Source: Candidatus Rokuibacteriota bacterium
GTDB taxonomy: Bacteria > Methylomirabilota > Methylomirabilia > Rokubacteriales > CSP1-6
NCBI GenBank assembly: GCA_016209385.1
Contig: JACQWB010000136.1
Coordinates: forward strand, 5,880 to 69,879
Reading direction: 5' to 3'
DNA length: 64,000 nt
Position numbers and translations under genes: made by a program. The notes under the pieces are model-generated. The model did no database searches and was not told where the DNA came from. It was given only the letters and a program-made list of their open reading frames with translations. Of the stretch, positions 20,701-63,224 are shown in pieces; within the stretch, counting starts at the first letter, position 1, and each line of letters opens with the position of its first letter.

Positions 20701-20702
20701 CG

Positions 20703-27849: not shown

Positions 27850-29412
27850 GTGGCGCACGGCATGGCCGATCAGGCGCAACAGGGGTCCGGGGTCCACCTG
27901 GCGCAGGAAGTGTGGTCGCGCCGGAAGTGGTCGGCCATCCTGGTCTTCATGGCGACGTTCAGCCTGGTGGTCAGCGTCGTGAACTTCCTCCCGAGCATTT
28001 ACCGCGCCACGGCCACGGTGCTCATCGAGCGCGAGCAGGTCCCTGCGACGTTTGTCAGGCCCGCGGTCACCGTGGAGCTCGACACGAGGCTTCAGACCAT
28101 CAGCGAGCAGACCCTGAGCCGCGCGCGGCTGCTGGAGCTGGTCAACCTCTTCGACCTCTACCCGGAGGTGAAAGGCCGAGCTCCGCTTGAGCACATCGTC
28201 GAGCGGATGCGGCGCGATATCAAGCTCGAGCTCAAGCAGGTCGAGCACACGGTCGGGCGCGGCGCGACCGTCGCCTTCGCGCTCAGCTACCGCGGGCGCG
28301 ATCCGCAGAAAGTCGCCAACGTGGCCAACACGCTGGCGTCGTTCTACATCGAGGAGAACTGGAAGATCCGCGGGCGGCAGGCGACGGAGACGACCGAGTT
28401 CTTCAAAGTCCAGCTCGACGAGATGCGGAAGCGGCTGGAGGAGCAGGAACGCCGGGTCGGCGAGGCGAAGCGACGGTATCCCGGCGAGTCTCCTCCTCAG
28501 ATGCAGGCGAACCTGCTCACGCTGGAGCGGCTCAGCGCTCAGCTTCGGCTGAACATCGAACGGCTGACCCGGCTCATGGAGCGGAGGGAAATCCTGGCGC
28601 GGCAGCTCGCCGAGGCGGCTCCGCGCGGCGCGGGGGGCGGGCCCAGCGCCAGAGCGGATCGGCTCGGCAAGCTGAAGGAAGAGCTGATCGAGCTTCGCCG
28701 GAGTTACACCGAGAAGTACCCGGATGTGATCCGGTTGAAAGCGGAGATCGCCGCCCGGGAGCGCGAGGCCGAGGCGAAGCCGGACGCGGAGGCGGACCCC
28801 GCTGTCCAGCGGCTGCGGCGGTCACTCCGCGAGGCGGAGACCGATATCGACGCCCTCAAGGACGAGGAGAAGCGGCTGAAAGAGGCGATCGCCGCGTACC
28901 AGCGGCGGATCGAGAACACGGCGGTCCGGGAGCAGGAGTTCACCCAGCTCCTGCGGGATTACGAGACGATGAAAGACCTCTACAGCTCGCTGCTGAGGCG
29001 GTACACGGACGCCCAGCAGGCGGAACATTTGGAGCAGGACCAGAAGGGGGAGAAGTTCAGCATGCTGGATCGCGCCGTGGTGCCGAACCATGCGGTCGCG
29101 CCGAACCACTTCCGGCTGATCGCCATGGGCCTGATGCTTTCCCTGGCGCTGGCCGTCGGCGTGGTGGTGGCGGCCGAGCAGGTCGACACGTCGTTCCACA
29201 CGGTGGACAGCCTGCGGGGCTTCACGAGCGTCCCGGTGCTGGTGAGCATTCCGCCGATCGTCACCGACGACGATATCGTCCGGCAGCGCCGGCGCGCCTG
29301 GCTCATCGCGGCCGCTTCGGCTGTGGGTCTGCTCCTCATCGTCGGGATGTCCTATTTCATCGCGCACGGCAACGAGCAGCTCGTGTCGATGCTGGCGCGC
29401 GGCGGGTCGTAG
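27850..29412 (+). CDS. Polysaccharide chain-length determinant protein (Wzz / PCP family, EpsF-like).
   Basis: N-terminal TM segment, long coiled-coil periplasmic region, C-terminal TM segment. Confidence 0.8.
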   Translation: MAHGMADQAQQGSGVHLAQEVWSRRKWSAILVFMATFSLVVSVVNFLPSIYRATATVLIEREQVPATFVRPAVTVELDTRLQTISEQTLSRARLLELVNLFDLYPEVKGRAPLEHIVERMRRDIKLELKQVEHTVGRGATVAFALSYRGRDPQKVANVANTLASFYIEENWKIRGRQATETTEFFKVQLDEMRKRLEEQERRVGEAKRRYPGESPPQMQANLLTLERLSAQLRLNIERLTRLMERREILARQLAEAAPRGAGGGPSARADRLGKLKEELIELRRSYTEKYPDVIRLKAEIAAREREAEAKPDAEADPAVQRLRRSLREAETDIDALKDEEKRLKEAIAAYQRRIENTAVREQEFTQLLRDYETMKDLYSSLLRRYTDAQQAEHLEQDQKGEKFSMLDRAVVPNHAVAPNHFRLIAMGLMLSLALAVGVVVAAEQVDTSFHTVDSLRGFTSVPVLVSIPPIVTDDDIVRQRRRAWLIAAASAVGLLLIVGMSYFIAHGNEQLVSMLARGGS

Positions 29413-29423: not shown

Positions 29424-30428
29424 ATGTACCTGGAATTCTTCGGCCTGAAGGCGAAGCCGTTCAACAACACGCCTGACCCGAAGTTTCTCTACCTCACGCC
29501 GGGTCATCGCGAGGCGCTGGCGCACCTCGTGTACGGGGTCCAGGAGCAGAAAGGGTTCATCGTGCTCACGGGTGAGGTGGGGACCGGCAAGACGACGCTG
29601 CTCCGCGCCCTGCTTGAGCGGCTCGACGGCAGCAACACGGCGGTTGCCTTCGTCTTCCACTCGGCCCTCTCGTTCGACGACGTCCTCGAGTACATGCTCG
29701 AGGACTTCGGCCTGGGGAAGGTCGGGAAGAGCCGGGTCGAATGCCTGGTCGCGCTGAACGACTTCCTGATCGAGCGGCGGCGCGTCGGCCAGAACACCGC
29801 CGTGATCCTCGACGAGGCCCAGAACCTGCATCCGTCGACGCTCGAGCAGATCCGGCTCCTCTCGAATGCCGAGACGGCCACGGACAAGCTGCTGCAGATC
29901 GTGCTGGTGGGCCAGCCGGAGCTCGGGGCCAAGCTGGAGCTTGCGGAGCTGCGCCAGCTCAGGCAGCGGATCGGGCTCCGCTGCGCCATCTCGCCGTTGA
30001 CGGCGGCGGAGACCGGGGACTACATCCGGAGCCGCCTCCGGATCGCGGGGGCGCGGGATCTCAGCCTCTTTACCGAGCGCGCGGTGCGCCGGATCGCGCA
30101 GTACGCGGGCGGGATTCCGCGTGTCGTGAACCTGGTCTGCGACCACTGTCTCCTCATCGGGTACGCCGACCAGACGCGGCGGATCGATCGCGACATCGTG
30201 GAGCGGGCGATCGAGTACTTCGAGGAGGGCGCGCTGGCGCTCCCGCGGCGACAGGGGTTCGCCGCGCTCGCGCCGCTGCGGGGATTCCGGTGGCTCGTCG
30301 GAGCGCTCATCGCCTCCGTGATCGGCATCCTCGCGGGGTTGGCGTTGCAGCCCGATGCGGTGGCGTACGTGTCCGATTTGGTGTCCGGATCGCTCTCGAG
30401 CCTCGCGGACGCGCTGGGCGCCCAATGA
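29424..30428 (+). CDS. AAA ATPase of the ExeA/GspA-like family (secretion ATPase subfamily associated with PEP-CTERM-type EPS loci).
   Basis: Walker A motif GEVGTGKTTLLRAL, Walker B motif AVILDEAQNL. Confidence 0.8.
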   Translation: MYLEFFGLKAKPFNNTPDPKFLYLTPGHREALAHLVYGVQEQKGFIVLTGEVGTGKTTLLRALLERLDGSNTAVAFVFHSALSFDDVLEYMLEDFGLGKVGKSRVECLVALNDFLIERRRVGQNTAVILDEAQNLHPSTLEQIRLLSNAETATDKLLQIVLVGQPELGAKLELAELRQLRQRIGLRCAISPLTAAETGDYIRSRLRIAGARDLSLFTERAVRRIAQYAGGIPRVVNLVCDHCLLIGYADQTRRIDRDIVERAIEYFEEGALALPRRQGFAALAPLRGFRWLVGALIASVIGILAGLALQPDAVAYVSDLVSGSLSSLADALGAQ

Positions 30429-31459
30429 GCGAATTTTTCAGGGCGCTCGAGCGAGCCGAACAGGAGCGCATCCTGCGGGAGCAGGCGCGCCAACGGGAAG
30501 CCGGTGCGGTCGCGGTCGAGCCTCCCGGTGACGTCGCACCAGAAGAGACCCCGCCGGCAGCGGCCCCGCCGACGGTCCAGGAGCCGGTGTCAACGGGCGT
30601 CGAGCGGCCGGTCGAGGTGGAGGTCAGCCAGCCGGAGGCGCGGTCCGAAGACGGAGCGGTTCCCGCTGGCGTCGATGGCCACATGGTGAGCCTCATCACC
30701 CCGAGGGCGTTCGCGGCGGAGCAGTATCGGCGGCTTCGCTATGTAGTCGAGCAGCTCCATGCGAATGCCAACCTTTCGGTCGTCGCGGTCACGAGTCCCT
30801 CGGTCGGTGATGGCAAGTCCGTCACCGCCATCAATCTCGCCGGCGCCCTCGCGCAGGCGGTCGACGGGAAGGTGCTCCTCGTCGAAGCGGACCTGCGCCG
30901 GCCGTCCGTCGCCCATAAGCTGGCGCTCGGCGAATCCGCGGGGCCCGGGCTCGTGCGGGCGATCCTGGACCCGAACCTGACCCTGGAGAGCGTGGTGTGC
31001 CGCCATCCGGTGTTCAATCTGTCGATCCTCCACGCCGGCCGGAGCGAGGCCGCTCCGTACGAGTTGCTGAAATCGCCGCGGCTCGGAGAGCTGATCGCGG
31101 ACGCGCGCCGTCGTTACGAGTACCTGGTGCTCGATATGCCTCCCTTGCTGGCGGTGCCCGATTGCCAGGAGCTCGCGCAGTGGGTGGACGGCTTCCTCAT
31201 CGTCGTGGCCGCCAACAGGACGCCGCGCAAGCTCGTCGAGGAATCCCTGAACCTCATCGAGCCGAACAAGGTTGTCGGGTTCGTATTCAACCGAGACGAT
31301 CGACCGCTCTCCGGGTACTACGCGTACTACTACGGCTACGGGCCCGCCGAGGGCGACCTGCTGGGATGGTGGGGCCGCGCCGCGAAAAAGCTCGAGGGGT
31401 CGATCCGGGGGCGGCGGTTCCTCCGGGGAGCGCGGCCCGCCCGGGCGCCGCGACGCTGA
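30425..31459 (+). CDS. Bacterial tyrosine (BY) autokinase, EpsG/Wzc cytoplasmic-domain type.
   Basis: Walker A motif TSPSVGDGKS. C-terminal tyrosine cluster SGYYAYYYGYG. ATGA start/stop overlap with the upstream ATPase gene. Confidence 0.8.
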   Translation: MSEFFRALERAEQERILREQARQREAGAVAVEPPGDVAPEETPPAAAPPTVQEPVSTGVERPVEVEVSQPEARSEDGAVPAGVDGHMVSLITPRAFAAEQYRRLRYVVEQLHANANLSVVAVTSPSVGDGKSVTAINLAGALAQAVDGKVLLVEADLRRPSVAHKLALGESAGPGLVRAILDPNLTLESVVCRHPVFNLSILHAGRSEAAPYELLKSPRLGELIADARRRYEYLVLDMPPLLAVPDCQELAQWVDGFLIVVAANRTPRKLVEESLNLIEPNKVVGFVFNRDDRPLSGYYAYYYGYGPAEGDLLGWWGRAAKKLEGSIRGRRFLRGARPARAPRR

Positions 31460-34229: not shown

Positions 34230-35642
34230 ATGTTCGCTGACCACACCGACGATTTCCATAGCTTCCGGGTCACCCGGAGCCTTGCCGGGCTTACCTCCAG
34301 GTTGGCGCCCGCGCTGGGCGTCGCCTTCACCCTGCTAGGGACCTTGTACGCGCTCTCTCCGAACGCCCGGGTCGCGGTCGCGGGCCTCCTGATCGGTGCC
34401 GGGCTCCTCCTGTTGCTCCGCGCGGTCTCCGATCGAGTCCCGCGAGCCCGTCCGCGCCGCGAGCGCGTGCTGATCGTGGGGACCGGCCCCGTTGCCCGGA
34501 AGTTGATCGAGGAGATCGAGGCCCGGCCATGCTGCCGCTACACTATCGTCGGCGTGGTGGATGAGGCCACGGCCTCCGCCGAAGCGTTCCGCCACCTGCT
34601 CCTGGGGCGGCTCGAGCGTCTCGGCAAGATCATCGGCGAAGTCCACCCCGACCGGATCATCGTCGCGCTGGCCGAGCAACGGGGGCGGTTGCCGGTCCGC
34701 GAGCTGCTGGCGGCCCGCGTGCGCGCCGGGATCGTCGTCGAGGACGCGGTGGAGGTCTACGAGCGCCTCACGGGGAAGCTCGCCATCGAATCGCTCACGC
34801 CGAGCAGCCTGATCTTCTCCAGGGATTTCCGGAAGTCCCGGGTCGCCCTGGTGGTCGGCCGCGGGCTGAGCATCCTCGCCGCGCTGATCGGCCTCGTCGG
34901 CCTCGCCCCGCTCCTCGGCCTGATCGTCCTGGCCATCAAGCTGGATTCACGCGGCCCGGTGTTCTTCGTCCAGGAGCGGGTGGGTCTCCGCGGCCGGCGC
35001 TTCAAACTCATCAAGTTCCGCACCATGCACCCGGCGGACCGCGCGACATCCGAGTGGGTGCAGGACAACGTCGATCGCATCACGCGGGCCGGGAGGTGGC
35101 TGCGAAAGTTTCGCCTCGACGAGCTTCCCCAGTTCGCGAATATCCTCCACGGCGACATGAACCTGGTCGGTCCGCGACCGCACCCGGTCTCGAACTACGA
35201 GCTGTTCGTGCTGGTGCATCGGAATCTCAACGACATCTCCGGCCAGGAGATTCCGTACTACTCCCTCCGGTCCGCGGTTCGGCCCGGGGTGACGGGCTGG
35301 GCGCAGATCCGCTACGGCTACGCCAACAACCTCGCGGAAGAGACGGAGAAGATGCGCTACGACCTGTACTACATCAAGCACATGTCGCTGTGGCTGGATC
35401 TCCGCATCGTGTTCGAAACCGTCAGGGTCATCCTCCTGGGTCATGGGGCCGAGGCGGCCGCTGCCTCGAGGCGCGAGGTCCCCGCCGGAACGGGCCGGCA
35501 ACGGGGGCTCGCAGCGCTCTCGAGCGCCGGTGGAAGCGGCTCCGACGGCGCGGGTGACGGAGGAGATCCGAAGCGCATCGGAGCGAGGGTGGCGGGTGTC
35601 TTTGGCGCGCGCAGAACGCGCCACATATCACGCTCCGCATGA
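34230..35642 (+). CDS. Priming polyprenyl-phosphate sugar phosphotransferase (WbaP/EpsB 'bacterial sugar transferase' family).
   Basis: TM-rich N-terminus, then the conserved C-terminal catalytic domain DELPQFANILHGDMNLVGPRP...GVTGWAQI. Confidence 0.85.
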   Translation: MFADHTDDFHSFRVTRSLAGLTSRLAPALGVAFTLLGTLYALSPNARVAVAGLLIGAGLLLLLRAVSDRVPRARPRRERVLIVGTGPVARKLIEEIEARPCCRYTIVGVVDEATASAEAFRHLLLGRLERLGKIIGEVHPDRIIVALAEQRGRLPVRELLAARVRAGIVVEDAVEVYERLTGKLAIESLTPSSLIFSRDFRKSRVALVVGRGLSILAALIGLVGLAPLLGLIVLAIKLDSRGPVFFVQERVGLRGRRFKLIKFRTMHPADRATSEWVQDNVDRITRAGRWLRKFRLDELPQFANILHGDMNLVGPRPHPVSNYELFVLVHRNLNDISGQEIPYYSLRSAVRPGVTGWAQIRYGYANNLAEETEKMRYDLYYIKHMSLWLDLRIVFETVRVILLGHGAEAAAASRREVPAGTGRQRGLAALSSAGGSGSDGAGDGGDPKRIGARVAGVFGARRTRHISRSA

Positions 35643-36577
35643 AGCCTGCCGCGACGAAGTTCCTCGTCTGCCCTGAATGCAAGTCGGAGCTGGGTCTCCG
35701 CGCGCAGATCCATGAAGGCCGCGAGGTCGTCGAGGGCGCTCTGGAGTGCCGGGGATGTGGTGTCGGGTACCCGATCGTCGGCGGTGTTCCCAGGTTCGTG
35801 AGGTCCGGCGCGTACGCGTCCAGCTTCGGGTACCAGTGGCATCGGTTTCGGACGGTGCAGCTGGACTCCGTCAGCGGAACGAGCCGGTCGGAGCGGGCCC
35901 TGGAGTCCACAACGGGGTGGACGGACGCGGATTACGGGGGTCGCCTCGTGCTCGACGCGGGGGTCGGCGCCGGCCGGTTCGCGGAGATCGTCGCGAAGAA
36001 GGGCGGAGAGGTGGTCGGGATCGACCTGACGACGGCGGTGGACGCGGCATACCTCAACATCGGCCGACACGAGAGAGTCCACCTGATTCAGGCCGACATC
36101 TTCGCGATGCCGTTTCGCGAGAGCACATTCGACCTGGCCTACTCGATCGGCGTGCTGCATCACACCCCGGATCCGCGGGCCGCCTTCGAGCGCGTTGCCG
36201 CCACGGTCAAGAAGGGCGGCGGGCTCGCCATCTACGTGTATCACGGCTACGGCTTCGCGCAGCGTTCTTCCGACCTGATTCGGAGGCTGACCACGCGCCT
36301 GCCCGCCCCGCTCATGATCGCGCTCGCCGCGGCAGCGATCCCTCTCTACTACCTCTATGGGGTGCCCGGACTCGGCAAGGTGCTGCAGCTTGTCTGCCCG
36401 ATCTCGTTGCACCCGAGCTGGCGCTGGCGCTGGCTGGACACGTTCGACTGGTACACGCCGACGTACCAGTGGAAGTTTCGCTATCCCGAAGTGATCCGCT
36501 GGTTTCGGGCGAACGGGTTCCTCGATATCGAAGCCTTCGATGACGCGATTCGGATCCGCGGGATCAAGACCGGGTGA
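35639..36577 (+). CDS. Class I SAM-dependent methyltransferase with an N-terminal Trm112-like zinc-ribbon.
   Basis: CPECKSEL...CRGCG zinc-ribbon, then LDAGVGAGRFAEIVAKKGGEVVGIDL (motif I). Confidence 0.7.
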   Translation: MKPAATKFLVCPECKSELGLRAQIHEGREVVEGALECRGCGVGYPIVGGVPRFVRSGAYASSFGYQWHRFRTVQLDSVSGTSRSERALESTTGWTDADYGGRLVLDAGVGAGRFAEIVAKKGGEVVGIDLTTAVDAAYLNIGRHERVHLIQADIFAMPFRESTFDLAYSIGVLHHTPDPRAAFERVAATVKKGGGLAIYVYHGYGFAQRSSDLIRRLTTRLPAPLMIALAAAAIPLYYLYGVPGLGKVLQLVCPISLHPSWRWRWLDTFDWYTPTYQWKFRYPEVIRWFRANGFLDIEAFDDAIRIRGIKTG

Positions 36578-37695
36578 AGGGTGAGGCCTTGAGCGCGCCG
36601 CACTACGTGGTCGAGTACCACGAGCACACCGGCCTCTACCGGTGGCGGGTCGCCCCCGGGGAGCGGCTTTTGCTCCCGACGGGGCGACCTGCCCGCCGAG
36701 CTCCCAACGTCGTCGCGCTGGGAGGCGGAACCGGGCTCCCCGTCGTCCTGCAAGGCCTGAAGCAAGCCCTCCTTCCCCGCCGATGGCCGGGGGAATCGCC
36801 GCGGGATCAGGACCGGGACCGTCTCACCGCCATCGTGACGGTTGCGGACGACGGGGGAAGCTCGGGCCGCCTCCGACAGGCGTACCGGGTGCTCGCCCCC
36901 GGCGATATCCGCAACTGCCTCCTCGCCCTCGCGGAAGGCGATTCCACGGTGGGGGCGATCTTCGGCTTCCGCTTCAATGGCGGGAACGAGCTGGCGGGCC
37001 ACACGCTCGGCAATCTCATCCTGACGGCCCTGAGCCAGCTCGAGAGCGACTTTCTCAAGGCGGTCGAGCGGGCGAGCGACATCCTCGCGATCCGGGGGCG
37101 GGTCCTGCCGTCCACACTGGACGACGTCACCCTCCTGGCCGAGTTCGCCGACGGGAGCCGAGTGGAAGGCGAATCACGGATCGCGGCGGTCCGTCGCCCC
37201 ATCCGGCGAGTCCGTCTTCAGCCGGAAACCGCCCGGGCGCTGCCCCAGGCCCTGGACGCCATCGCTGCGGCGGACCTGATCGTGATCGGGCCGGGGAGCC
37301 TCTACACGAGCCTTTTGCCAACCCTGCTGGTGAAAGAGCTGGCGGAGGCCATCGCTCGCTCTCGGGCCCGGGTGGTGCTGGTGATGAACCTCATGACCGA
37401 GCCGGGAGACACCGACGGCTACACCGCCGCGGACTTCCTCCAGGCGCTACGCCGTCATACCCCCCAGGTGCCCATTCACGCGGTGCTCGTCAACAGCGCC
37501 AGGATCCCCGGGGAGCTGAGCGAGCGGTACGCGGCGGAGGGCGCCGCCCCGATGCCCGTGGAGGTGGAAGTCCTCAAGGCGGTCGGGTGCCGGCCGGTGG
37601 AGCGGGATCTCCTTGGCGGGGGTCCGCTGGTTCGGCACGATCCGCAGAAGCTCGCGCGGGCGGTGCTGGAGCTGGCGGCTGGGGTGCCGGAATGA
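36574..37695 (+). CDS. YvcK/CofD-family protein (UPF0052; gluconeogenesis factor-like).
   Basis: VVALGGGTGL...TVADDGGSSGRLR core motifs. Confidence 0.75.
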   Translation: MKGEALSAPHYVVEYHEHTGLYRWRVAPGERLLLPTGRPARRAPNVVALGGGTGLPVVLQGLKQALLPRRWPGESPRDQDRDRLTAIVTVADDGGSSGRLRQAYRVLAPGDIRNCLLALAEGDSTVGAIFGFRFNGGNELAGHTLGNLILTALSQLESDFLKAVERASDILAIRGRVLPSTLDDVTLLAEFADGSRVEGESRIAAVRRPIRRVRLQPETARALPQALDAIAAADLIVIGPGSLYTSLLPTLLVKELAEAIARSRARVVLVMNLMTEPGDTDGYTAADFLQALRRHTPQVPIHAVLVNSARIPGELSERYAAEGAAPMPVEVEVLKAVGCRPVERDLLGGGPLVRHDPQKLARAVLELAAGVPE

Positions 37696-45590: not shown

Positions 45591-46725
45591 CCTGATCAAA
45601 AGCGGCGTCGCGCGCGCGGCGACCTGGACGAGAGCTGAGCGGTTGGCGCGCGTCCTGGGCGATGGGGAACGGATGCCTCTGGTGGTCTGTTACCACCGGG
45701 TGGTCGAGCATTTTGATCCGGACGAGAGGACTGTGATGCCCGCGATGCTGATCAGTCGCGGAGTGCTCGAGCGACACCTGGACTGGATCGGGCTGCGGTT
45801 CCGCTTCATCTCGCTCGACGAGCTAGGATCGCGGCTGGAGTCCGGGGAGCCGTTCGACGGGCCGGTGGCCGCCGTCACGTTCGACGATGGCTACAGCGAT
45901 GTGTACGAGAACGCGTTCCCGATCCTGAAGCGAAAAGGCATCCCCGCGGCGTTTTTCGTCATTACGGACCTGATCGGCACCTCGCGCCTGCCGGTGTACG
46001 ACAGGCTCTACCTGTTGCTCGCAGAGAGGTTTGCGAAATGGGGTTCGGTCATGTCCCGCACGCCTGGTCCACGAGCGAGCGGCAAACGGGCGAGCCCGCG
46101 CGGCACGGTGCCCACCTGTCTGGGCGAGAGCCCTGTCGGCGTGCTGGGCGCGCTGCTCGATGCGTTGTCCCAGAGCGAAATCGAGCGCGTGATCGAGGCG
46201 CTCGAAGCCGGGTGCGAGGTGGACCAGCGCGGGCTGGACGGAGCTCGCCCTGCGAGCTGGGAGATGGTCGCCGAGATGTGCCGCGCCGGGATGACGATCG
46301 GGTCGCACACGCGGAGCCATGTCCTGCTGCCGAACGAACACGAAGAAAAGGTGCTGGAGGAGATCGCGGGCTCGCGGCGAGAACTGGAGAGCCGACTCGG
46401 AGTACCGGTCAACCATTTCGCGTATCCGAGCGGGCGCTTCAATGCGGCGGTGGTTCGGGCGGTCGCGGCTCGCGGGTACCGCTTCGGCTATACCGTGTGT
46501 CGGCACCGTGACGATCGCTATCCGTTGCTGACGATCCCGCGGCGGGTCCTGTGGGAGAATTCGTGCCTCGACGGGCGCGGGCTCTTTTCCCCGGCCATCA
46601 TGCACTGCCAGGCTCACGGGCTCTTCGACCATTTCGCGCCCGCGTGCGAGCAGGATCACGGCTGGCCGAACGGCCAGACCGGCGCGTCTCGCGTCGTGTT
46701 GGACCTCGGGCCAGCGGGCGGCTAG
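45559..46725 (+). CDS. Polysaccharide deacetylase (NodB homology domain). Start uncertain, alternative at 45673.
   Basis: AVTFDDGYSDVYENAFPILKRKGIPAAFFV...GSHTRSH are NodB motifs. Confidence 0.75.
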   Translation: MICGNGVRLRSLIKSGVARAATWTRAERLARVLGDGERMPLVVCYHRVVEHFDPDERTVMPAMLISRGVLERHLDWIGLRFRFISLDELGSRLESGEPFDGPVAAVTFDDGYSDVYENAFPILKRKGIPAAFFVITDLIGTSRLPVYDRLYLLLAERFAKWGSVMSRTPGPRASGKRASPRGTVPTCLGESPVGVLGALLDALSQSEIERVIEALEAGCEVDQRGLDGARPASWEMVAEMCRAGMTIGSHTRSHVLLPNEHEEKVLEEIAGSRRELESRLGVPVNHFAYPSGRFNAAVVRAVAARGYRFGYTVCRHRDDRYPLLTIPRRVLWENSCLDGRGLFSPAIMHCQAHGLFDHFAPACEQDHGWPNGQTGASRVVLDLGPAGG

Positions 46726-46730
46726 ACCTC

Positions 46731-48224
46731 ATGGATTCAGCCTTCAGGCCGGCGTTGCTGTTGATGTCAGGACGGGCATTGGCCTTCGCCGCGACGTTCT
46801 TCATCCCCGTCGTGCTCGTCAGGATCTTCGCCCCGGCGGAATTCGGCACGTATAAGCAGCTGTTTTTGATTTGCGCGACGTTGTACGGCATCGCTCAGGT
46901 GGGGATGGCGGAGAGCCTGTTTTACTTCCTCCCCTCGGGTCAGCGGGACGCGGCGAGATACGTCGTCAATTCGATGCTCGTGCTGGCAGCGGCCGGGCTG
47001 GCTTGCCTCGGGCTTCTGGAGCTCGGCGGGTCGGCGATTTCGCACTGGCTGAGCAACAGCGAGCTGGCACCGCATCTCCCGTTCATCGGGATATACCTGC
47101 TCCTGCTGCTGGTCTCGGCCGTGCTCGAGATCGTCATGATATCGCGGCAGCGCTACTTCCTGGCGTCCAGCTCGTACGCGCTTTTCGACGTGCTGCGAGC
47201 GGTCCTGTTCCTGATTCCCGCACTCCTGCTGCGCCGGCTGGAGTGGCTGATCCTGGGTGGGGTGGTCTCCGCGGCGCTGCGCTTTTGCGCGGTCCTTCTG
47301 TATCTGAGGCGCGAGTTTCACGGTGAACTCAAGCCGGATGCGGCGCTGCTGAAGGAGCAAGTGGCCTATGCCTTGCCGTTCCAGCTGTGGGTCCTCGTCG
47401 AGATCGTGCAAGCGAACTTCCATCAGTACGCGGTGTCCTATGGCTTCGACGCGGCGACCTTCGCGATCTACGCCGTGGGCTGCTTTCAGATACCGGCGGT
47501 CGACTGGGTCACGACATCCGCGGGCAACGTGATGATGGTCCGGATGAGCGAGAAGATCGGGGACGGCCAACGGGAGTCTGTGCCGGGGATATGGCGGGAT
47601 GTGACGCGGAACCTCGCGCTGATCTTTTTCCCGCTCGTGGGTTTGCTACTGGTCGCGGCGCCCGAGCTTATTGTCTTCCTCTTCACGGAGACCTACCGCG
47701 CCAGCGTCCCGCTGTTCATGATCTGGTCGGCGGCGCTCGTGCTGGCTGCGTTTCAGACCGATGCGGCCCTGCGCGTGTACGCGGAAACCCGATTTCTGTT
47801 CGGGGTCAGTACCCTGCGGCTCGTGCTGATTACGGGGTTGATCGGCGGGTTCCTGTCCGCCTTTCACATGCTGGGCGCGGTGCTGGTGACCGTCCTCGCG
47901 ATGGTGGTCGGCAAGGTGCTGGCATTGGCGCGGATCAAGCGGCTCCTGGGGGTCGGCGTGGCCGAGTTTCTGCCGTGGAGGAGCCTCGCGGCGATTGTCG
48001 CGGTTGCGGCCGCGGCCGGAGCGGTGGCGCTCGGCGTGAAATCGCAGATGGAGCTATCGACGCTCCCGGTGTTGGTGACGACCAGCCTCGTGTACGCGGC
48101 CTCGTATGCCGGTCTGTCCTGGTGGTTGGGCCTGTTCGGCGAGACGGGAACAATGGTGGTCACGCGGTGGCTGCAGCGACCGTCCGTGGGCCCGGCCCAG
48201 GCCACCGGGGCGGATCGAGGGTAG
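46731..48224 (+). CDS. Wzx-type oligosaccharide flippase / polysaccharide biosynthesis membrane protein.
   Basis: ~12-14 TM helices. The start ATG 46731 lies 6 nt after the upstream stop. Confidence 0.7.
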   Translation: MDSAFRPALLLMSGRALAFAATFFIPVVLVRIFAPAEFGTYKQLFLICATLYGIAQVGMAESLFYFLPSGQRDAARYVVNSMLVLAAAGLACLGLLELGGSAISHWLSNSELAPHLPFIGIYLLLLLVSAVLEIVMISRQRYFLASSSYALFDVLRAVLFLIPALLLRRLEWLILGGVVSAALRFCAVLLYLRREFHGELKPDAALLKEQVAYALPFQLWVLVEIVQANFHQYAVSYGFDAATFAIYAVGCFQIPAVDWVTTSAGNVMMVRMSEKIGDGQRESVPGIWRDVTRNLALIFFPLVGLLLVAAPELIVFLFTETYRASVPLFMIWSAALVLAAFQTDAALRVYAETRFLFGVSTLRLVLITGLIGGFLSAFHMLGAVLVTVLAMVVGKVLALARIKRLLGVGVAEFLPWRSLAAIVAVAAAAGAVALGVKSQMELSTLPVLVTTSLVYAASYAGLSWWLGLFGETGTMVVTRWLQRPSVGPAQATGADRG

Positions 48225-57770: not shown

Positions 57771-58739
57771 ATGAGGTGGCGGGAGCGTCTCGAGCGCGGG
57801 TTCTTCCTGGTGGAGCGCGTGGTCACGGCGCTCCTCTACTCGTGGTGCGTCGCGCGGGAGCGCTTCGGGAGAGGGGCGAGAGTGCCGATCTTGATGTACC
57901 ACCAGGTCGGCGATCCCCTGAGGGGAGTCAGGGCGTGTCAGGATTGCGTCTCTCCCGGCTGCTTCACCCGGCAGCTGCGCGCCATCCTCAGAGCGGGGTA
58001 TCGGGTGATCTCGCTCGGGCAGCTCGTCCGCTGGCTCGACGCTTCACCCGATGCGCTGAAACGCTGCGTCGTCCTCACCTTCGATGACGGCTTCCGCGGC
58101 CAGTTCAGGAACGCCTATCCCGTCCTTCGGCGGTACGGGGTCCCCGCCACGTTCTTCCTCATCGCCGGGTATATCGGGACAGACACGTTCTTCCCCCACC
58201 TCGGCCTCGCGGGCAGGCCGGATGGCGGGAGGGATGGGGCGCTCTCGGACTGGCGTCCGCTCTCCTGGGACGAGGCGAAGGGGCTGGCTCGAAACGGCAT
58301 GGAGATCGGCTCCCACAGCGTGTCCCACCGATCGCTGGGGCGCATGGGGAGGGACGAGGCGGCGGCCGAGGTCCGGCGGTCGAAGGAGATCCTGGAGGAG
58401 CGCCTGGGCATCCGCGTCGAGGGCTTCGCGTATCCGTTCGGATCGCGCGCCTACCGTGACTTCGATCGGGGCGTCCAGGAGCTGCTCCGTGAAGCCGGCT
58501 ATCGCGTTGCCTGTACGACGGTGGTGGGCCGAAACAGCGGGGGCGCGGACCGCCTGGCGCTCCGCCGCATTCCGGTGGAGGAAGCGGACGGGCCCTTCCG
58601 CATCCGCTGCAAGCTCGTGGGCGCGTACGACTGGGTGGGCGCGGTCAAGGCGCTCTGGCAGCGCCTGGTGCCGCGCGAGGAGAGCGTTGACCTCGAACTG
58701 GCCGCGCCTCAGGCGTCGGCTCGTGGGAGCGCGTCGTGA
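57771..58739 (+). CDS. Second polysaccharide deacetylase (NodB domain). Start uncertain (the track ORF begins at 57726).
   Basis: VVLTFDDGFRGQFRNAYPVLRRYGVPATFF...GSHSVSH. Confidence 0.75.
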   Translation: MRWRERLERGFFLVERVVTALLYSWCVARERFGRGARVPILMYHQVGDPLRGVRACQDCVSPGCFTRQLRAILRAGYRVISLGQLVRWLDASPDALKRCVVLTFDDGFRGQFRNAYPVLRRYGVPATFFLIAGYIGTDTFFPHLGLAGRPDGGRDGALSDWRPLSWDEAKGLARNGMEIGSHSVSHRSLGRMGRDEAAAEVRRSKEILEERLGIRVEGFAYPFGSRAYRDFDRGVQELLREAGYRVACTTVVGRNSGGADRLALRRIPVEEADGPFRIRCKLVGAYDWVGAVKALWQRLVPREESVDLELAAPQASARGSAS

Positions 58740-60025
58740 GTGTCCTGGTTACGGACGCGAGCGGCAACCACGCGCTGGCGGTGGTCAGGTCGCTCGGCCG
58801 GCGGGGGATCCGCGTGGCCGCGGCCGACAGCGCGTGGTGGGCGAAGAGCTTCTTCAGCCGCTACTGCGCGCGCCGAGCCCTCCATCCGTCGCCGGCGGGG
58901 GGAGTGGACGCGTTCGTGAGCGGACTCTGCCGGATCCTCGACGAGGTCAGGCCGATGATGCTGATGCCGATGACCGAGCGGACCATCCTTGCGCTCATGG
59001 TCAGGCGAGAGGAGATCGAATCCCGGGTCGCCCTGGCCCCGCTCCCCGCTCCGGAAGCGCTCTCCGTCGTCTTCGACAAGCACGCGACGATCGAGCTGGC
59101 CACGTCTCTCGGCGTTCCGGTGCCGAAGACGCTTCGCCTCTCCGGCCTGGAGGATCTGGACCGGCTTCGCTCCGAGATCTCGTTCCCCGCGGTGATCAAG
59201 CCGAGGCGGTCCGAGATCTGGACGGCCGACGACCGGATCGTGCCGGGCGGGCCCGTCGAGTACTGCTTCAGCGCCGAGGAGCTGGAGGCGAAGTATCTGG
59301 CCGTTCACCGCAGGGCGCCGCTGCCGCTCATCCAGGAGTTCATCCCGGGCGAGGGGTACGGGGTCTCGGTCCTGTACCGCCGCGGGCGGCTCAAGGCGCT
59401 GTTCGCGCACCGGCGGCTCCGGATGATTCGCCCCACCGGCTCGGGAAGCTCGCTGCGCGAGAGCATCGCCCCTCCGCCGGCCATGGTGGATGCCGCGCGG
59501 GCGCTCCTGGACGCGCTCGCATGGCACGGCGTCGCCATGGTGGAGTTCAAGCTGGACGCGCGGGATGGCACACCGAAGCTGATGGAGGTCAACGGCCGCT
59601 TCTGGAACTCGGTCCCCCTCGCGGTGGCCGCCGGCGTGGATTTTCCCTTTCTCCTGTACCGCCTCGCGGTGGACGGTGATGTGCGTGAGCACCTGGAGTA
59701 CCGGGTGGGAGTGCAAAGCCGGTGGCTCGTCGGGGATGTCCGGCACCTGGTGGAGGTGCTCGGCGGGAAGCCGCGGGGATGGGCCGACGGATTTCCCTCG
59801 CGCTGGAGAACGCTGCGGGACTTCATGAAATTTTTCGGACGGGACATGCACTACGACGAATTCTGGCTGTCGGACCCGCTTCCGCTGTTTGCGGATTTCG
59901 CCGACTTCTTCTTTCGCCAGGTCCCCCAGCGCCTCGTCCCGCGCCGCCCCACAGCCGTCGAGGAGAAGCCGGCGTGCGAATTCGCCCCGAGTCGGATGGG
60001 AGGGCCATGCGGATTCTCTGGGTGA
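58736..60025 (+). CDS. ATP-grasp fold enzyme.
   Basis: FPAVIKPRRS ... LIQEFIPGEGYGVSVLY ... MVEFKLDARDGTPKLMEVNGRF is typical of the ATP-grasp family. Confidence 0.65.
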   Translation: MSVLVTDASGNHALAVVRSLGRRGIRVAAADSAWWAKSFFSRYCARRALHPSPAGGVDAFVSGLCRILDEVRPMMLMPMTERTILALMVRREEIESRVALAPLPAPEALSVVFDKHATIELATSLGVPVPKTLRLSGLEDLDRLRSEISFPAVIKPRRSEIWTADDRIVPGGPVEYCFSAEELEAKYLAVHRRAPLPLIQEFIPGEGYGVSVLYRRGRLKALFAHRRLRMIRPTGSGSSLRESIAPPPAMVDAARALLDALAWHGVAMVEFKLDARDGTPKLMEVNGRFWNSVPLAVAAGVDFPFLLYRLAVDGDVREHLEYRVGVQSRWLVGDVRHLVEVLGGKPRGWADGFPSRWRTLRDFMKFFGRDMHYDEFWLSDPLPLFADFADFFFRQVPQRLVPRRPTAVEEKPACEFAPSRMGGPCGFSG

Positions 60026-61902
60026 AGGTGGGCGGCCTCTGGCCCCTCACGAGCGGGGGGCGCCTCCGCAGCTTTCACATCGTCTCCGAGCTGTCGCGTC
60101 GTCACCGGCTGATCCTGCTCACGACCCATGGTCCGGCTGACGATCCTGGCGCGCTCGCCGCGCGTCTGCCGCGCTGCGAGCGGATCGTGTCGCTGCCGTA
60201 CGCGATCCCGAAGTACCGGAGCGCCGGCTTCGCGCTCGCCGTGCTGCGGTCGTGGCTCTCGCCCCTCCCGGTGGACATCCTGAGGTTTCGTGTCCCGTCG
60301 CTTTCCGGCGAGGTTCGCCGGATCCAGGGGAGCGAGAAAGTGGACGTATGCGTGGCGGATTTTCTGAGCGCCACGCCCAACGTCCCGCTGGACGGCCCGG
60401 TCCCGGTGGTGCTTTTCGCCCACAACGTTGAGCACATGATCTGGAAGCGCCTGAGCGAGAACGAGCCGCGGCTGTGGAGGCGGCTGCTCCTCGAGATCGA
60501 ATGGCGGAAGATGCGGCGGTACGAGGCCGACGTCTGTCGCCGGGCCGCATCCACGATCACGGTCTCGGATCTCGATCGCGCCCTGCTGCTCGCGTTGGCC
60601 CCGACCGCCCGCATGTGGGTGACCCCGACCGGCGTCGATACGTCCTATTTCGTGCCGGATGGAAGGCGGGAGGCTCGCGCGGCGGTCGTCTTCACCGGGT
60701 CCATGGACTGGTACCCGAACGAGGACGCCGTTCTCTGGTTCGTGGACGCGGTCCTGCCCCGGATCCGTCGTGAAGTGCCGGAGGCGTCGTTTACCGTGGT
60801 CGGCCGGAACCCGACTCGGCGCCTGCTGGCCGCGGTCGCGGAAGCAGGCGTTCGGGTGACGGGAACCGTGGATGATGTCCGGCCGTACATCGCGGAGGCC
60901 GCGGTGTACGCCGTGCCGCTCAGGATCGGCGGGGGAACGCGGCTCAAGATCTTCGAGGCGCTCGCGATGGGAAAGGCGGTGGTCTCGACCGCGGTCGGCG
61001 CCGAGGGTCTTCCGCTCGCTCCCGGCGAAAACTTCCTCCAGGCGGACGAACCGGAGGAGTTCGCCCGCGCGGTCGTCTCTCTCCTGAGGGATCCGGCGCG
61101 GCGGCGGCAGCTCGGCATGGCGGGACGGCGGCTGGTCGAGGAGCGCTACGCCTGGCCGGAGGTGACACGCCGGTTCGCTGGGCAGTGCGGGGAAGCGGCC
61201 GCGATCACGCTCCCGGGGAAGAGCAACGCTCGAGACTTCGCCGGACTCCGAGAACCCTTCGGCAAGGCGCTCGCCAGACGGATCCTTCCGCGCGTGCTCG
61301 TCGGCCACCTCCGCGCGTTCCGGACGCTTCGCCCCCGTGACTGGCCGCGCTACTGGACGCTGAGGCTCCGGCGGGCGCTCCCCGCACGGCGAAACGGCCT
61401 GCCCGGGCCGGGTGCAGCGATCCGTTCCGTCCTGTTCGTCTGCCGGGGGAACGTGATTCGGAGTCCAATGGCCGCCGCGCTGCTCAGGCGGCAGCTCGCC
61501 GGTTCTCGGGGCGGTGCGATCTCGGTCGCGTCCGCGGGGCTTCGCGCGGTTGCCGGAGAGCCGGCGGACCCCCGGGCGCGGCGGGTTGCCGGACGGTTCG
61601 GCGTCTCGCTGGAGGACCATCGGGCCCAGCCGTTGACGCCCGAGCTGGTGGCGCAGGCGGACATGATCGTCGCCATGGATTCCCTCATTGCAGCCGAGCT
61701 GCGGGGACGGTACGCGGCTGCGCGGCGCAAGACCGTCCTGCTCGGGGAAATCGCGGACCCCTACGACGGCGACGAGAGCGGGCTCGGCCGCTGCTACGAG
61801 CGTGTCGAGTCTGTCGTTCAGCAGCTCGCGTCCGGGCTCGCCCCGGCGGAGGAACACGGAACCGGCCCGGATGGACCGGGTCAGGGAGGTGATCGGAGTT
61901 GA
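60007..61902 (+). CDS. Fusion protein: N-terminal GT4 glycosyltransferase + C-terminal low-molecular-weight protein-tyrosine phosphatase (Wzb-like).
   Basis: GT4 region GGGTRLKIFEALAMGKAVVST. PTP P-loop VLFVCRGNVIRSP (CX5R-S) and the D-P-Y loop ADPYDGD. Single uninterrupted 631-codon frame. GGGAGGG Shine-Dalgarno sequence upstream of ATG 60007. Confidence 0.8.
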   Translation: MRILWVKVGGLWPLTSGGRLRSFHIVSELSRRHRLILLTTHGPADDPGALAARLPRCERIVSLPYAIPKYRSAGFALAVLRSWLSPLPVDILRFRVPSLSGEVRRIQGSEKVDVCVADFLSATPNVPLDGPVPVVLFAHNVEHMIWKRLSENEPRLWRRLLLEIEWRKMRRYEADVCRRAASTITVSDLDRALLLALAPTARMWVTPTGVDTSYFVPDGRREARAAVVFTGSMDWYPNEDAVLWFVDAVLPRIRREVPEASFTVVGRNPTRRLLAAVAEAGVRVTGTVDDVRPYIAEAAVYAVPLRIGGGTRLKIFEALAMGKAVVSTAVGAEGLPLAPGENFLQADEPEEFARAVVSLLRDPARRRQLGMAGRRLVEERYAWPEVTRRFAGQCGEAAAITLPGKSNARDFAGLREPFGKALARRILPRVLVGHLRAFRTLRPRDWPRYWTLRLRRALPARRNGLPGPGAAIRSVLFVCRGNVIRSPMAAALLRRQLAGSRGGAISVASAGLRAVAGEPADPRARRVAGRFGVSLEDHRAQPLTPELVAQADMIVAMDSLIAAELRGRYAAARRKTVLLGEIADPYDGDESGLGRCYERVESVVQQLASGLAPAEEHGTGPDGPGQGGDRS

Positions 61903-63224
61903 TGCGCGTGAGCGTCTTCGGGCTGGGATACGTCGGATGCGTGAGCGGGGCCTGCCTGGCGAGGGCAGGACACGAGGTGGTCGGGGTCGATGTGAACTCG
62001 GAGAAGGTGGCGATGGTCAACGCCGGCTCGTCGCCGATCGTGGAGCCCGGGCTGGGCGACCTGCTGGCCGAGGTCGTCGGGGCCGGCCGGCTGAGGGCCA
62101 CGGTCTCGAGCGAGGAGGCTGTTGAGGGCTCGGACCTCGCGCTGGTCTGTGTCGGCACGCCGGGGCGCCCCAACGGGCAGCTGAACGTGGAGGCCGTGGC
62201 GCGCGTCGGGAGCGAAATCGGTCGGGCCCTCGCCGGGCGGCCGGACCCGTACACGGTCGTGCTCCGGAGCACCGTCCTTCCCGGAACCACGGAGCGGGTC
62301 CTCGTCCCCGCCCTCCTCGCGGGCGTCGGGGCGGAGTCGGGATCCCGCCTGCGAGTGGCTGTCAATCCGGAGTTCATGCGCGAGGGTTCCGCCCTGCGGG
62401 ACTTCGCGCATCCTCCGCTCACGCTGGTGGGGTGCGAGGATCCGGAAACCGCCTCCCAGCTCCGGTCGCTCTACGCGGCTGTCGATGCGCCATTCATCGC
62501 CACAGCGACGAAGACGGCGGAGATGGTCAAGTACGTGTCGAACGCCTTCCACGCGCTCAAGATCTGCTTTGCCAACGAGATCGGTGACGTGTGCGCGGCG
62601 CTGGGCGTCGACGCCCACGAGGTGATGCGCATCTTCCTCCTGGACAGGAAACTCAACGTGTCCGAGGCGTACCTGCGCCCGGGGTTCGCCTTCGGCGGCT
62701 CGTGCCTGCCGAAGGACCTCCGGGCGTTGCTCTACCGCGCGCGCGCCGCCGACATCGGCGTCCCGCTGCTGTCCGCAGTCCTGCCCTCGAATGAGGGGCA
62801 GATCCGACGGGCGGTGGAGGCGGTCCTGGAAACGCGAATGCGACGGGTGGGAGTGGTGGGCCTCGCCTTCAAGCCCGGGACCGACGACCTCAGGGAAAGC
62901 CCAATGGTTGCGCTCGTGGAAGCGCTCATCGGCAAGGGGTGTGACGTGCGCGTTCTCGACGCGGATGTCTCGATCGCCCGGCTGGTCGGAGCGAATCGCC
63001 GCTACATCGAGGAGGAGATCCCGCATATCGCGTCGCTGATGTGCCAGGACGTGGCGACGCTGCTCGCCCACGCCGAGGTGCTGGTGATCGGCAACCCCAG
63101 CCCGGAGGTGGCGCGGGCCCTGGCGGCGGTCGGCCCTCACCAGGTCGTCGTCGATCTCACGCGGGGCGCAGTCGACCGGCGGGCAGGGCCGGGTGAGGGG
63201 GGTCCCCTGCGATGCGTCGAATAG
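61899..63224 (+). CDS. Nucleotide-sugar 6-dehydrogenase (UDP-glucose / GDP-mannose dehydrogenase family).
   Basis: MRVSVFGLGYVGCVSG Rossmann motif. Catalytic motif GFAFGGSCLPKD. Confidence 0.85.
   Translation: MMRVSVFGLGYVGCVSGACLARAGHEVVGVDVNSEKVAMVNAGSSPIVEPGLGDLLAEVVGAGRLRATVSSEEAVEGSDLALVCVGTPGRPNGQLNVEAVARVGSEIGRALAGRPDPYTVVLRSTVLPGTTERVLVPALLAGVGAESGSRLRVAVNPEFMREGSALRDFAHPPLTLVGCEDPETASQLRSLYAAVDAPFIATATKTAEMVKYVSNAFHALKICFANEIGDVCAALGVDAHEVMRIFLLDRKLNVSEAYLRPGFAFGGSCLPKDLRALLYRARAADIGVPLLSAVLPSNEGQIRRAVEAVLETRMRRVGVVGLAFKPGTDDLRESPMVALVEALIGKGCDVRVLDADVSIARLVGANRRYIEEEIPHIASLMCQDVATLLAHAEVLVIGNPSPEVARALAAVGPHQVVVDLTRGAVDRRAGPGEGGPLRCVE

What the first reader, a model, noticed from the sequence alone, without database searches (positions are those of the whole stretch)
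60007..61902. GT4 glycosyltransferase fused to a Wzb-like low-molecular-weight phosphotyrosine phosphatase
One uninterrupted 631-codon gene encodes a complete GT4 domain. After a ~90-aa linker it encodes a complete LMW-PTP domain, with the CX5R(S) P-loop VLFVCRGNVIRSP and the Asp-containing DPY loop ADPYDGD. The locus also encodes a BY-kinase (30425-31459) with a C-terminal tyrosine cluster, the normal Wzb substrate. No free-standing wzb is visible in the window. Fusing the phosphatase to a glycosyltransferase would physically couple the Wzc/Wzb phosphorylation cycle, which controls polymerisation and export, to a sugar-addition step. I am not aware of a characterised example.
Basis: seen in the sequence. 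Interest (0 to 1): 0.7.

Follow-up and report, generated by a model that had tools for sequence, protein, structure and literature searches.

The report
Glycosyltransferase fused to Wzb-like phosphatase
A soil Rokubacteria genome encodes a sugar-adding enzyme joined in one protein to the tyrosine phosphatase that normally resets the polysaccharide-export kinase; the join looks real and recurs in nature, but the same phosphatase is also joined to other neighbouring enzymes or stands alone, so this is a new variant of a known system, not a new mechanism.

Summary
Window 60007-61902 (+) is one open 631-codon gene with a complete GT4 glycosyltransferase (best family: stp1, TIGR03087, below cutoff) and a complete LMW-PTP domain. 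The P-loop (C479/R485/S486) and the D584-P-Y loop are intact and invariant in relatives. The locus is an XrtA-like Wzx/Wzy polysaccharide cluster with a split BY-kinase (Y cluster YYAYYYGY) and no other LMW-PTP in 64 kb.

The interpretation needs revising.
- The "90-aa linker" is about 25 disordered residues plus a conserved two-helix extension that belongs to the phosphatase; stand-alone ~212-aa homologues carry it too.
- The window's closest relatives have the same gene order with GT and phosphatase as separate, overlapping genes. The window's fusion is a singleton junction with a net +22 nt, no stop and no start.
- GT-PTP fusions are not monophyletic (0/200 bootstraps), so fusion or fission recurred.
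- The same phosphatase is fused to an ATP-grasp enzyme in 40 of 150 representatives, and also to a Wzx flippase, a GNAT and Ugd.
- In 74 of 80 species-representative loci the GT has no adjacent phosphatase.

The best reading is a Wzb-like phosphatase fused to whichever operon neighbour precedes it, not a GT-specific coupling. I found no paper on it. I rate it a new variant of a known kind, of moderate interest.

The parts
60007..61902 (+). Fused gene, 631 aa plus stop (NCBI MBI4609218.1, annotated only as 'glycosyltransferase')
   Evidence: GC3 periodicity.
60007..61209 (+). GT4 / GT-B glycosyltransferase domain (aa 1-401), stp1-like
   Evidence: Pfam PF13439 and PF13692. TIGR03087 scores 245 bits against a cutoff of 316.65. 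AF2 pLDDT is mostly >90. Foldseek matches GT4 enzymes at TMt about 0.7. It is 68-73% identical to ~403-aa stand-alone orthologues.
61210..61278 (+). True linker or junction (aa 402-424), disordered and not conserved
   Evidence: pLDDT <50 for residues 405-422. It occupies the place of the stop/start overlap of split relatives. The window has a net +22 nt, no stop codon and no ATG/GTG/TTG.
61279..61377 (+). Conserved Arg-rich two-helix extension of the phosphatase module (aa 425-457; motif K/R-x-L-P ... R-A-x-R-x-L ... Y-W-x-L-R)
   Evidence: Homologous to the N-terminus of stand-alone 205-235-aa PTPs. Helices have pLDDT 84-93 in the full model and 86-91 without the GT, with pTM 0.83. No counterpart in solved LMW-PTPs.
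61426..61842 (+). LMW-PTP core (aa 474-612)
61441..61464 (+). P-loop C479-R-G-N-V-I-R485-S486
   Evidence: C, G, N, R, S and P are invariant in 36 fused and 40 stand-alone homologues. Position 5 is Val/Ile, the pTyr type, not the Thr of arginine phosphatases (PMC7772506).
61756..61764 (+). D584-P-Y general-acid loop
   Evidence: D584 and P585 are invariant in fused and stand-alone homologues.
30425..31459 (+). Cytoplasmic BY-kinase (XrtA-associated TyrKin-like), the presumed substrate; Y cluster at 31316-31339
   Evidence: TIGR03018 scores 147 bits, below its cutoff of 230.65; TIGR01007 scores 105.9, just below its cutoff of 108.05. Walker A/A'/B, O-motif and YYAYYYGY are present.
27850..29412 (+). 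Chain-length determinant (PCP), the membrane partner of the split BY-kinase
   Evidence: TIGR03007 at 264.8 bits, cutoff 278.85.
58736..60025 (+). ATP-grasp gene directly upstream; its orthologues are the commonest fusion partner of this phosphatase elsewhere
   Evidence: phmmer and Pfam on representatives; locus L090.
61899..63224 (+). NDP-sugar (UDP-glucose-type) dehydrogenase, overlapping the stop of the fused gene (TGATG); a conserved downstream neighbour
   Evidence: TIGR03026 at 386 bits. Overlap sequence. Synteny.

Best explanation
The gene encodes a cytoplasmic bifunctional protein in an XrtA-like, Wzx/Wzy-dependent exopolysaccharide locus of a Candidatus Rokubacteria MAG. The N-terminal stp1-like GT4 domain adds a sugar to the lipid-linked repeat unit. 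The C-terminal module is a Wzb-like low-molecular-weight phosphotyrosine phosphatase with its own conserved N-terminal helical hairpin. It most likely dephosphorylates the tyrosine cluster of the locus's split BY-kinase, and possibly other kinase substrates such as the adjacent Ugd-type dehydrogenase, so resetting the kinase assembly/disassembly cycle that controls polymerisation and export. The fusion arose from two translationally coupled, overlapping neighbour genes (GT then PTP) through a small indel that removed the stop and start codons. It is one of many alternative arrangements of this phosphatase: stand-alone, or fused to GT, ATP-grasp, Wzx, GNAT or Ugd. Its likely consequence is fixed 1:1 co-expression and tethering of the phosphatase to the cytoplasmic biosynthetic machinery, not a mechanism specific to this GT. 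Shown: ORF integrity, domain identity, conserved catalytic residues, fold, synteny, split relatives, multiple fusion partners. Inferred: phosphatase activity, its substrate, and the functional consequence of tethering.
Against: No biochemical data exist for any member. The window's own junction is a singleton: cluster of 1, no independent assembly found. All family assignments to XrtA-system models are below curated cutoffs, and no exosortase is present in the window. The tree is a simple NJ tree; support for the window protein's placement is only 66%, and 45.5% for separating the main fused group. The inter-domain geometry is not resolved (pTM 0.68), so a specific GT-PTP interface cannot be excluded. 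The role of the helical hairpin is unknown.
Confidence: 0.6

Rival explanations
1. GT-specific coupling. The phosphatase is fused to this GT because the GT step itself is regulated by tyrosine phosphorylation, or because the GT docks the phosphatase onto the Wzc-like kinase, so that sugar addition and the kinase cycle are mechanistically linked.
For: GT then PTP adjacency with overlapping stop/start in all four close split loci examined. Repeated GT-PTP fusion. A large fused group that retains both intact domains. BY-kinases are known to phosphorylate polysaccharide-pathway enzymes such as Ugd (PMC2516531, listed).
Against: The same phosphatase is fused to ATP-grasp in 40 of 150 representatives, and also to Wzx, a GNAT and Ugd. 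74 of 80 species-representative loci have the orthologous GT followed directly by Ugd, with no phosphatase within 3 kb. The extension folds confidently without the GT. The linker is disordered and unconserved.
Confidence: 0.17
2. Artefact. In the real genome the two genes are separate as in the closest relatives, and the fusion in this MAG contig is a sequencing or assembly indel.
For: The protein is a cluster of one from one contig. No independent assembly with the same junction was found. The nearest relatives are split, and a 1-nt frame change would be enough to fuse ATGA-overlapping genes. The two other fused proteins nested among split relatives (P0002, P0021) are also singletons.
Against: The length difference to the nearest split loci is about 22 nt, not a single base. 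No stop exists in the GT frame. No ATG/GTG/TTG exists in the PTP frame before the conserved K-x-L-A-R-R-I-L-P segment. In the two alternative frames the first stops lie 80-100 nt inside the conserved extension, which would give an overlap far longer than the 1-22 nt seen in relatives. GC3 stays highest in the same frame across the junction. The fused architecture is independently real in at least 33 other clusters, several with multiple members and contigs.
Confidence: 0.1
3. The LMWPc domain is not a protein-tyrosine phosphatase here. It could be a phosphoarginine phosphatase, an arsenate reductase, or a phosphatase acting on a phosphorylated sugar or lipid product of the GT, by analogy with synthase-phosphatase fusions such as sucrose-phosphate or trehalose-phosphate synthase/phosphatase.
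For: The LMWPc superfamily includes ArsC and YwlE-type enzymes, with weak hits. GT-phosphatase fusions exist in compatible-solute pathways (my own knowledge, not tested). The subfamily lacks the second P-loop cysteine and has an unusual extension.
Against: The best sequence and structure matches are EPS tyrosine phosphatases (AmsI, Wzb). P-loop position 5 is Val/Ile, not Thr. The DPY acid loop is conserved. ArsC models score only 17-21 bits. The phosphatase also occurs fused to non-GT partners and stand-alone in the same loci. A BY-kinase with a Y cluster and no other LMW-PTP is present.
Confidence: 0.07

Closest known systems
Wzb / AmsI / Etp-type LMW-PTPs of Wzy-dependent capsule and EPS loci (E. 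coli K30 Wzb 2wmy, Erwinia AmsI 4d74, Vibrio Wzb 7dhd)
   Different: Only 32-36% identical, and far below the NCBIfam equivalog cutoffs (60-75 bits against 243-247). It lacks the second P-loop Cys (CxGNxCRS becomes CxGN[IV][IM]RS). It carries a conserved N-terminal two-helix extension absent from all solved LMW-PTPs. Here it is fused to a GT.
TIGR03087 'stp1' PEP-CTERM/XrtA-system glycosyltransferase (GT4)
   Same: Best-scoring family over the full GT length (residues 12-389 against profile positions 10-389 of 397). The neighbours are best hits to XrtA-system families: ChnLen, ATPase, TyrKin, EpsB_2, O-ligase, stp2, amidotransferase, export protein.
   Different: The score of 245 is below the cutoff of 316.65. 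No exosortase or PEP-CTERM protein was found in the window. It is extended by a phosphatase module.
Stand-alone 'long' LMW-PTPs (205-235 aa) encoded just downstream of the stp1-like GT in Rokubacteria, NC10 and Acidobacteria MAGs (e.g. P0121, P0122, P0134, P0144)
   Same: Orthologous module: the same helical extension, P-loop, DPY loop and operon position between the GT and the Ugd-type dehydrogenase; 50-57% identity.
   Different: They are separate genes that overlap the GT stop by 1-22 nt in another frame. In the window the stop and start are gone and the two are one polypeptide.
ATP-grasp-LMWPc fusion proteins (~585-640 aa) of related EPS loci (e.g. P0249 in L090)
   Same: The same phosphatase subfamily, with its extension, sits at the C-terminus of an EPS-operon enzyme. 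The partner is the orthologue of window gene 58736-60025.
   Different: The N-terminal partner is an ATP-grasp ligase rather than a GT. This form is much more diverse at 50% identity (40 representatives against 1).

Membership tests
LMW-PTP (Pfam PF01451, class II Cys-based PTP) | Profile match above the curated threshold | tested here: met
   92.9 bits against a gathering score of 23.2, residues 475-608 covering the whole profile.
LMW-PTP (Pfam PF01451, class II Cys-based PTP) | N-terminal P-loop C-X5-R-(S/T) and a DP(Y) loop with the general-acid Asp | tested here: met
   C479-RGNVI-R485-S486 and D584-P-Y. These residues are invariant in 36 fused and 40 stand-alone homologues.
LMW-PTP (Pfam PF01451, class II Cys-based PTP) | LMW-PTP fold | tested here: met
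LMW-PTP (Pfam PF01451, class II Cys-based PTP) | Phosphotyrosine (not phosphoarginine or arsenate) specificity | tested here: inconclusive
   P-loop position 5 is Val/Ile as in pTyr enzymes, not the Thr of YwlE and DARP. ArsC models score only 17-21 bits. Enzyme activity cannot be tested here.
Wzb / Etp equivalogs (NCBIfam NF007520, NF008486) | Score above the equivalog cutoff | tested here: not met
   60.5 and 74.7 bits against cutoffs of 243 and 247. It is Wzb-like by fold and context, not an orthologue of enterobacterial Wzb.
Wzb-like function (cognate phosphatase of a BY-kinase) | Co-located BY-kinase with a C-terminal Tyr cluster and docking O-motif; dephosphorylation of that kinase | tested here: inconclusive
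   The kinase, with Walker A/A'/B, EQYRRLR and YYAYYYGY, lies about 29 kb upstream in the same locus, and this is the sole LMWPc in the window. Dephosphorylation cannot be tested with these tools.
GT4 / GT-B glycosyltransferase | Two Rossmann-like domains matching the GT4 N-terminal and GT1 C-terminal profiles; GT-B fold | tested here: met
   PF13439, PF13692, PF13524 and PF00534 are all above gathering cutoffs. Foldseek matches PimA, MshA, BshA and PglA at TMt about 0.7. The family motif VPLRIGGGTR...E317 is invariant in the fused homologues.
TIGR03087 stp1 (PEP-CTERM/XrtA-system GT) | Score above the curated cutoff | tested here: not met
   245.4 bits against 316.65. It is the best hit but below the cutoff.
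TIGR03087 stp1 (PEP-CTERM/XrtA-system GT) | Genome or locus carries exosortase XrtA and PEP-CTERM proteins | tested here: inconclusive
   No exosortase hit among the ORFs scanned, and no PEP-CTERM-like C-terminus in the six-frame scan of the window. The rest of the genome is not available.

The most novel reading that the evidence does not exclude
The long LMW-PTP with its helical hairpin may be a dedicated module that is delivered, by translational coupling or outright fusion, to the individual cytoplasmic enzymes of this polysaccharide pathway (GT, ATP-grasp ligase, GNAT, Wzx, Ugd). On this reading those enzymes are themselves tyrosine-phosphorylated by the BY-kinase. The set of natural fusion partners would then be a 'Rosetta stone' list of BY-kinase substrates or interaction partners, and would show how the kinase/phosphatase cycle is wired into repeat-unit synthesis.
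Probability: 0.2. Interest if true: 0.7.

Novelty: new variant of a known kind. Interest (0 to 1): 0.42.

Why it matters
How the Wzc/Wzb phosphorylation cycle connects to the rest of the Wzx/Wzy machinery is still described as unresolved (PMC9800525). Natural fusions of the phosphatase to specific pathway enzymes are evidence from gene arrangement that it sits with the cytoplasmic biosynthetic enzymes. They also nominate concrete partners to test: the stp1-like GT, the ATP-grasp ligase, Wzx and Ugd. In addition, the work defines an undescribed LMW-PTP subfamily, with an N-terminal helical hairpin and no second P-loop cysteine, that is common in uncultured soil phyla. The value is limited because every member is from a MAG or metagenome, none is characterised, and the variety of partners suggests the GT fusion itself may be functionally neutral.

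Tried and rejected
- I looked for an independent assembly of the window's junction with two codon-degenerate scans of metagenome contigs (ARDFAGLREPFGKAL and EPFGKALARRILP). Both found nothing.
- The mixed alignment A2 could not seed search for related loci, so I used the fused-only alignment A3 instead.
- The afdb50 fold library was unavailable, so I could not get UniProt names or organisms for the long-PTP fold.
- Four literature searches for a described GT-LMW-PTP fusion, or for a PTP in PEP-CTERM systems, found nothing relevant. The epsSMASH preprint only mentions a generic tyrosine phosphatase.
- I found no exosortase or PEP-CTERM proteins in the window.
- I first assumed that the ~600-aa representatives found with the PTP query were GT fusions. 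phmmer and Pfam showed nearly all are ATP-grasp fusions.
- I rejected the idea that the 90-aa segment is a linker.
- I rejected a single origin for the fusion.
Full report
**1. Observation**

Window 60007-61902 (+) is a single open reading frame of 631 codons. A longer ORF reaching back to 59722 is not the gene. The extra 95 codons have GC3 of 0.47, against 0.86 in the GT part, and ATG 60007 is preceded by GGGAGGG. GC3 stays highest in the same frame through the junction (0.78), the extension (0.85) and the phosphatase (0.84).

Pfam places a GT4 N-domain (PF13439, residues 26-213), a GT1-type C-domain (PF13692, residues 226-362) and a full LMWPc domain (PF01451, residues 475-608, 92.9 bits) on the protein. 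All are above gathering thresholds. The protein is 100% identical to MBI4609218.1 from a Candidatus Rokubacteria MAG, which is annotated only as 'glycosyltransferase'.

**2. Surroundings**

Positions 24.5-63.2 kb form one plus-strand polysaccharide locus:
- a UpxY/RfaH-like antiterminator
- two short OPX-like export genes
- a chain-length determinant (27850-29412)
- an XrtA-associated ATPase-like gene
- a cytoplasmic BY-kinase (30425-31459)
- GlmS
- a priming phosphoglycosyl transferase (34230-35642)
- an O-antigen-ligase-like gene and several GT4 genes
- FemAB/GNAT-like genes
- a Wzx-like flippase (46551-48224)
- two AsnB-type amidotransferases and a heparinase-II/III-like protein
- methyltransferases and deacetylases
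- an ATP-grasp enzyme (58736-60025)
- the fused gene
- a Ugd-type dehydrogenase whose start overlaps the fused gene's stop (TGATG)

Most best hits are to XrtA/PEP-CTERM-system families, but all are below curated cutoffs. I found no exosortase or PEP-CTERM protein in the window.

The kinase has Walker A, A' and B motifs, the ExxRxxR O-motif (EQYRRLR) and the Tyr cluster YYAYYYGY. An HMM built from 120 diverse LMW-PTPs finds only one LMWPc domain in all six frames of the 64 kb. This confirms that there is no free-standing wzb of that type.

**3. What the 'linker' is**

Searching with the C-terminal 242 aa returns stand-alone phosphatases of 205-235 aa that cover about 80% of the query. These align with the window protein from residue ~421 on (KALARRILPRVLVGHLRAFRTL...WPRYW against MMDAKGLAKQILPPGVLIHLRAARTL...WPLYW).

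AlphaFold2 gives:
- a confident GT (pLDDT mostly >90)
- a disordered stretch at 405-422
- two confident helices at 429-440 and 443-457
- a confident phosphatase core

**4. Is the phosphatase intact and of which kind?**

C479, G481, N482, R485, S486, P487, D584 and P585 are invariant across 36 fused proteins. The corresponding positions are invariant (Pro487 nearly so) across 40 stand-alone ones.

The closest solved sequences are AmsI (E 1.5e-17) and Wzb. The model superposes on E. coli K30 Wzb with TMt 0.91 and rmsd 1.1 A. P-loop position 5 is Val/Ile, as in pTyr enzymes. The Thr that confers phosphoarginine specificity in YwlE and DARP is absent (PMC7772506). Arsenate-reductase models score only 17-21 bits.

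The subfamily lacks the second P-loop cysteine of classical LMW-PTPs. It falls far below the Wzb and Etp equivalog cutoffs. It is therefore Wzb-like by fold and context, not a Wzb orthologue.

**5. Fused versus split in relatives**

Of the 120 best 90%-identity clusters, 36 are fused (~630 aa, both domains) and 84 are ~403-aa GTs.

All four contexts examined for close GT-only relatives show the same gene order: amidotransferase, deacetylase, ATP-grasp, GT, LMWPc (211-226 aa), Ugd. These are an NC10 MAG, a JGI soil contig, the L003-5 contigs, and GCA_001917855.1. In all of them the GT and PTP genes overlap by 1-22 nt in different frames. Three contexts from the main fused group show the same synteny with the fused gene.

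In an NJ tree of the GT domain:
- 33 fused proteins lie outside the GT-only clade.
- The window protein, P0002 and P0021 each sit singly among split relatives.
- Monophyly of all fused proteins appears in 0 of 200 bootstraps.
- P0002 groups with split P0037 and P0049 at 96%.
- The window protein groups with split P0038, P0039 and P0046 at 66%.

The phosphatase half of the window protein is likewise closest to the stand-alone phosphatases of those same split loci. Fusion or fission has therefore happened several times.

**6. Is the window's own fusion real?**

Relative to the nearest split loci, the window has about 22 extra nucleotides in the GT tail. Since 22 is 1 mod 3, this is the shift needed to bring the PTP frame into the GT frame. 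There is no stop codon, and no ATG/GTG/TTG before the conserved K-x-L-A-R-R-I-L-P segment. The other two frames first stop 80-100 nt inside the conserved extension. This is not what a single-base error in an ATGA-overlap arrangement would leave behind.

However, the protein is a cluster of one, and two degenerate scans for its junction peptide in the metagenome collection found nothing. Read-level confirmation is still needed. I put the artefact reading at about 10%.

**7. The finding that changes the interpretation**

I ran an exhaustive HMMER search of 1.84 billion representatives with the extension plus PTP, followed by Pfam and phmmer with the window's own proteins as probes. The 150 best representatives at 50% identity break down as follows:

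| Architecture | Representatives |
|---|---|
| Stand-alone (≤260 aa) | 85 |
| C-terminal fusion to an orthologue of the window's ATP-grasp gene (58736-60025) | 40 |
| Fused to the stp1-like GT | 1 |
| Fused to an Acetyltransf_6 (FemAB-like) enzyme | 1 |
| Fused to a Wzx-type flippase | 1 |
| Followed by Ugd in the same polypeptide (partial sequence) | 1 |
| >260 aa with an N-terminal part not matched by the window probes | 21 |

One ATP-grasp-PTP fusion lies in a related EPS locus with a priming transferase, a DUF3473 deacetylase, Wzx, AsnB and Wzy.

Conversely, in 80 loci from GTDB species representatives that encode the stp1-like GT, only 2 are fused. In 74 there is no LMWPc within 3 kb; in the ten loci I examined the Ugd-type dehydrogenase lies directly or closely downstream of the GT in nine.

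The phosphatase is thus a movable operon module that fuses to whichever gene precedes it, and the GT works without it in most lineages.

**8. Mechanism**

Most likely (confidence about 0.6), the protein is a bifunctional cytoplasmic enzyme. The GT adds a sugar to the lipid-linked repeat unit. The Wzb-like module dephosphorylates the Y cluster of the locus's BY-kinase, allowing re-assembly of the kinase ring, as described for Wzc and Wzb (PMC9800525). It may also act on other kinase substrates; Ugd is a known BY-kinase substrate in E. coli (PMC2516531).

The fusion fixes 1:1 expression and keeps the phosphatase with the cytoplasmic biosynthetic enzymes. The activity, the substrate and any benefit of tethering are all inferred.

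A coupling specific to this GT (about 0.17), an assembly artefact (about 0.10) and a non-PTP function of the domain (about 0.07) are the rivals.

**9. Novelty and verdict**

The architecture is already present, unremarked, in public databases; JGI auto-annotates it as 'protein-tyrosine-phosphatase/glycosyltransferase'. I found no paper describing it.

It is a new variant of a known kind: a Wzb-like phosphatase subfamily with a helical hairpin that is prone to fuse with EPS-operon neighbours in uncultured soil phyla. Interest is moderate. The fusions could serve as natural pointers to the partners of the kinase/phosphatase cycle. But the diversity of partners and the split state in the nearest relatives argue against the specific coupling mechanism that made the finding look striking.

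Noticed in passing
P0244 (from; not in the window): A 1679-aa protein with PEP-utilizers and PPDK_N domains followed by five tandem LMWPc domains (337 bits in total). This is an odd multi-phosphatase architecture.
   Followed up: no
window 26619-27224 and 27249-27830 (+): Two tandem short (193-201 aa) OPX-like export genes. Both hit EpsY and TIGR03027 pepcterm_export below cutoff. They lie directly upstream of the chain-length determinant.
   Followed up: no
window 24501-25181 (+): A UpxY/RfaH/LoaP-like NusG-family antiterminator at the head of the polysaccharide operon. It is preceded by two NarL-type response regulators and a PAS histidine kinase (19399-22185).
   Followed up: no
window 30425-31459 (+), residues 306-344: The BY-kinase carries a basic tail of about 39 aa after the Tyr cluster (YYAYYYGY at 298-305). 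The cluster is therefore not at the extreme C-terminus, as it is in Wzc.
   Followed up: no
window 61441-61464 and homologues: The whole long-PTP subfamily has CxGN[IV][IM]RS instead of the classical CxGNxCRS. The second P-loop cysteine, thought to protect LMW-PTPs against oxidation, is missing.
   Followed up: partly
window 24.5-63.2 kb: Nearly every gene's best NCBIfam hit is an XrtA/PEP-CTERM-system family, but all are below cutoff. No exosortase or PEP-CTERM protein is in the window. This may be an XrtA-like EPS pathway without exosortase, or the exosortase may be encoded elsewhere.
   Followed up: partly
window 35639-37695 (+): A Trm112-like zinc-ribbon fused to a class I methyltransferase, and a YvcK/CofD-like UDP-GlcNAc-binding protein, sit inside the EPS operon next to a second NDP-sugar dehydrogenase (about 37.7-39.0 kb).
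   Followed up: no
L012-L089 (GTDB species-representative loci): The conserved core around the stp1-like GT is AsnB-type amidotransferase, GT, then Ugd-type dehydrogenase, across Acidobacteriota, Gemmatimonadota and Gammaproteobacteria MAGs. The phosphatase appears as an insertion between GT and Ugd only in a subset.
   Followed up: partly
window 6116-9298 (+): A large hybrid sensor kinase with an N-terminal 7TM region, GAF domains, HisKA/HATPase and a receiver domain, unrelated to the finding.
   Followed up: no
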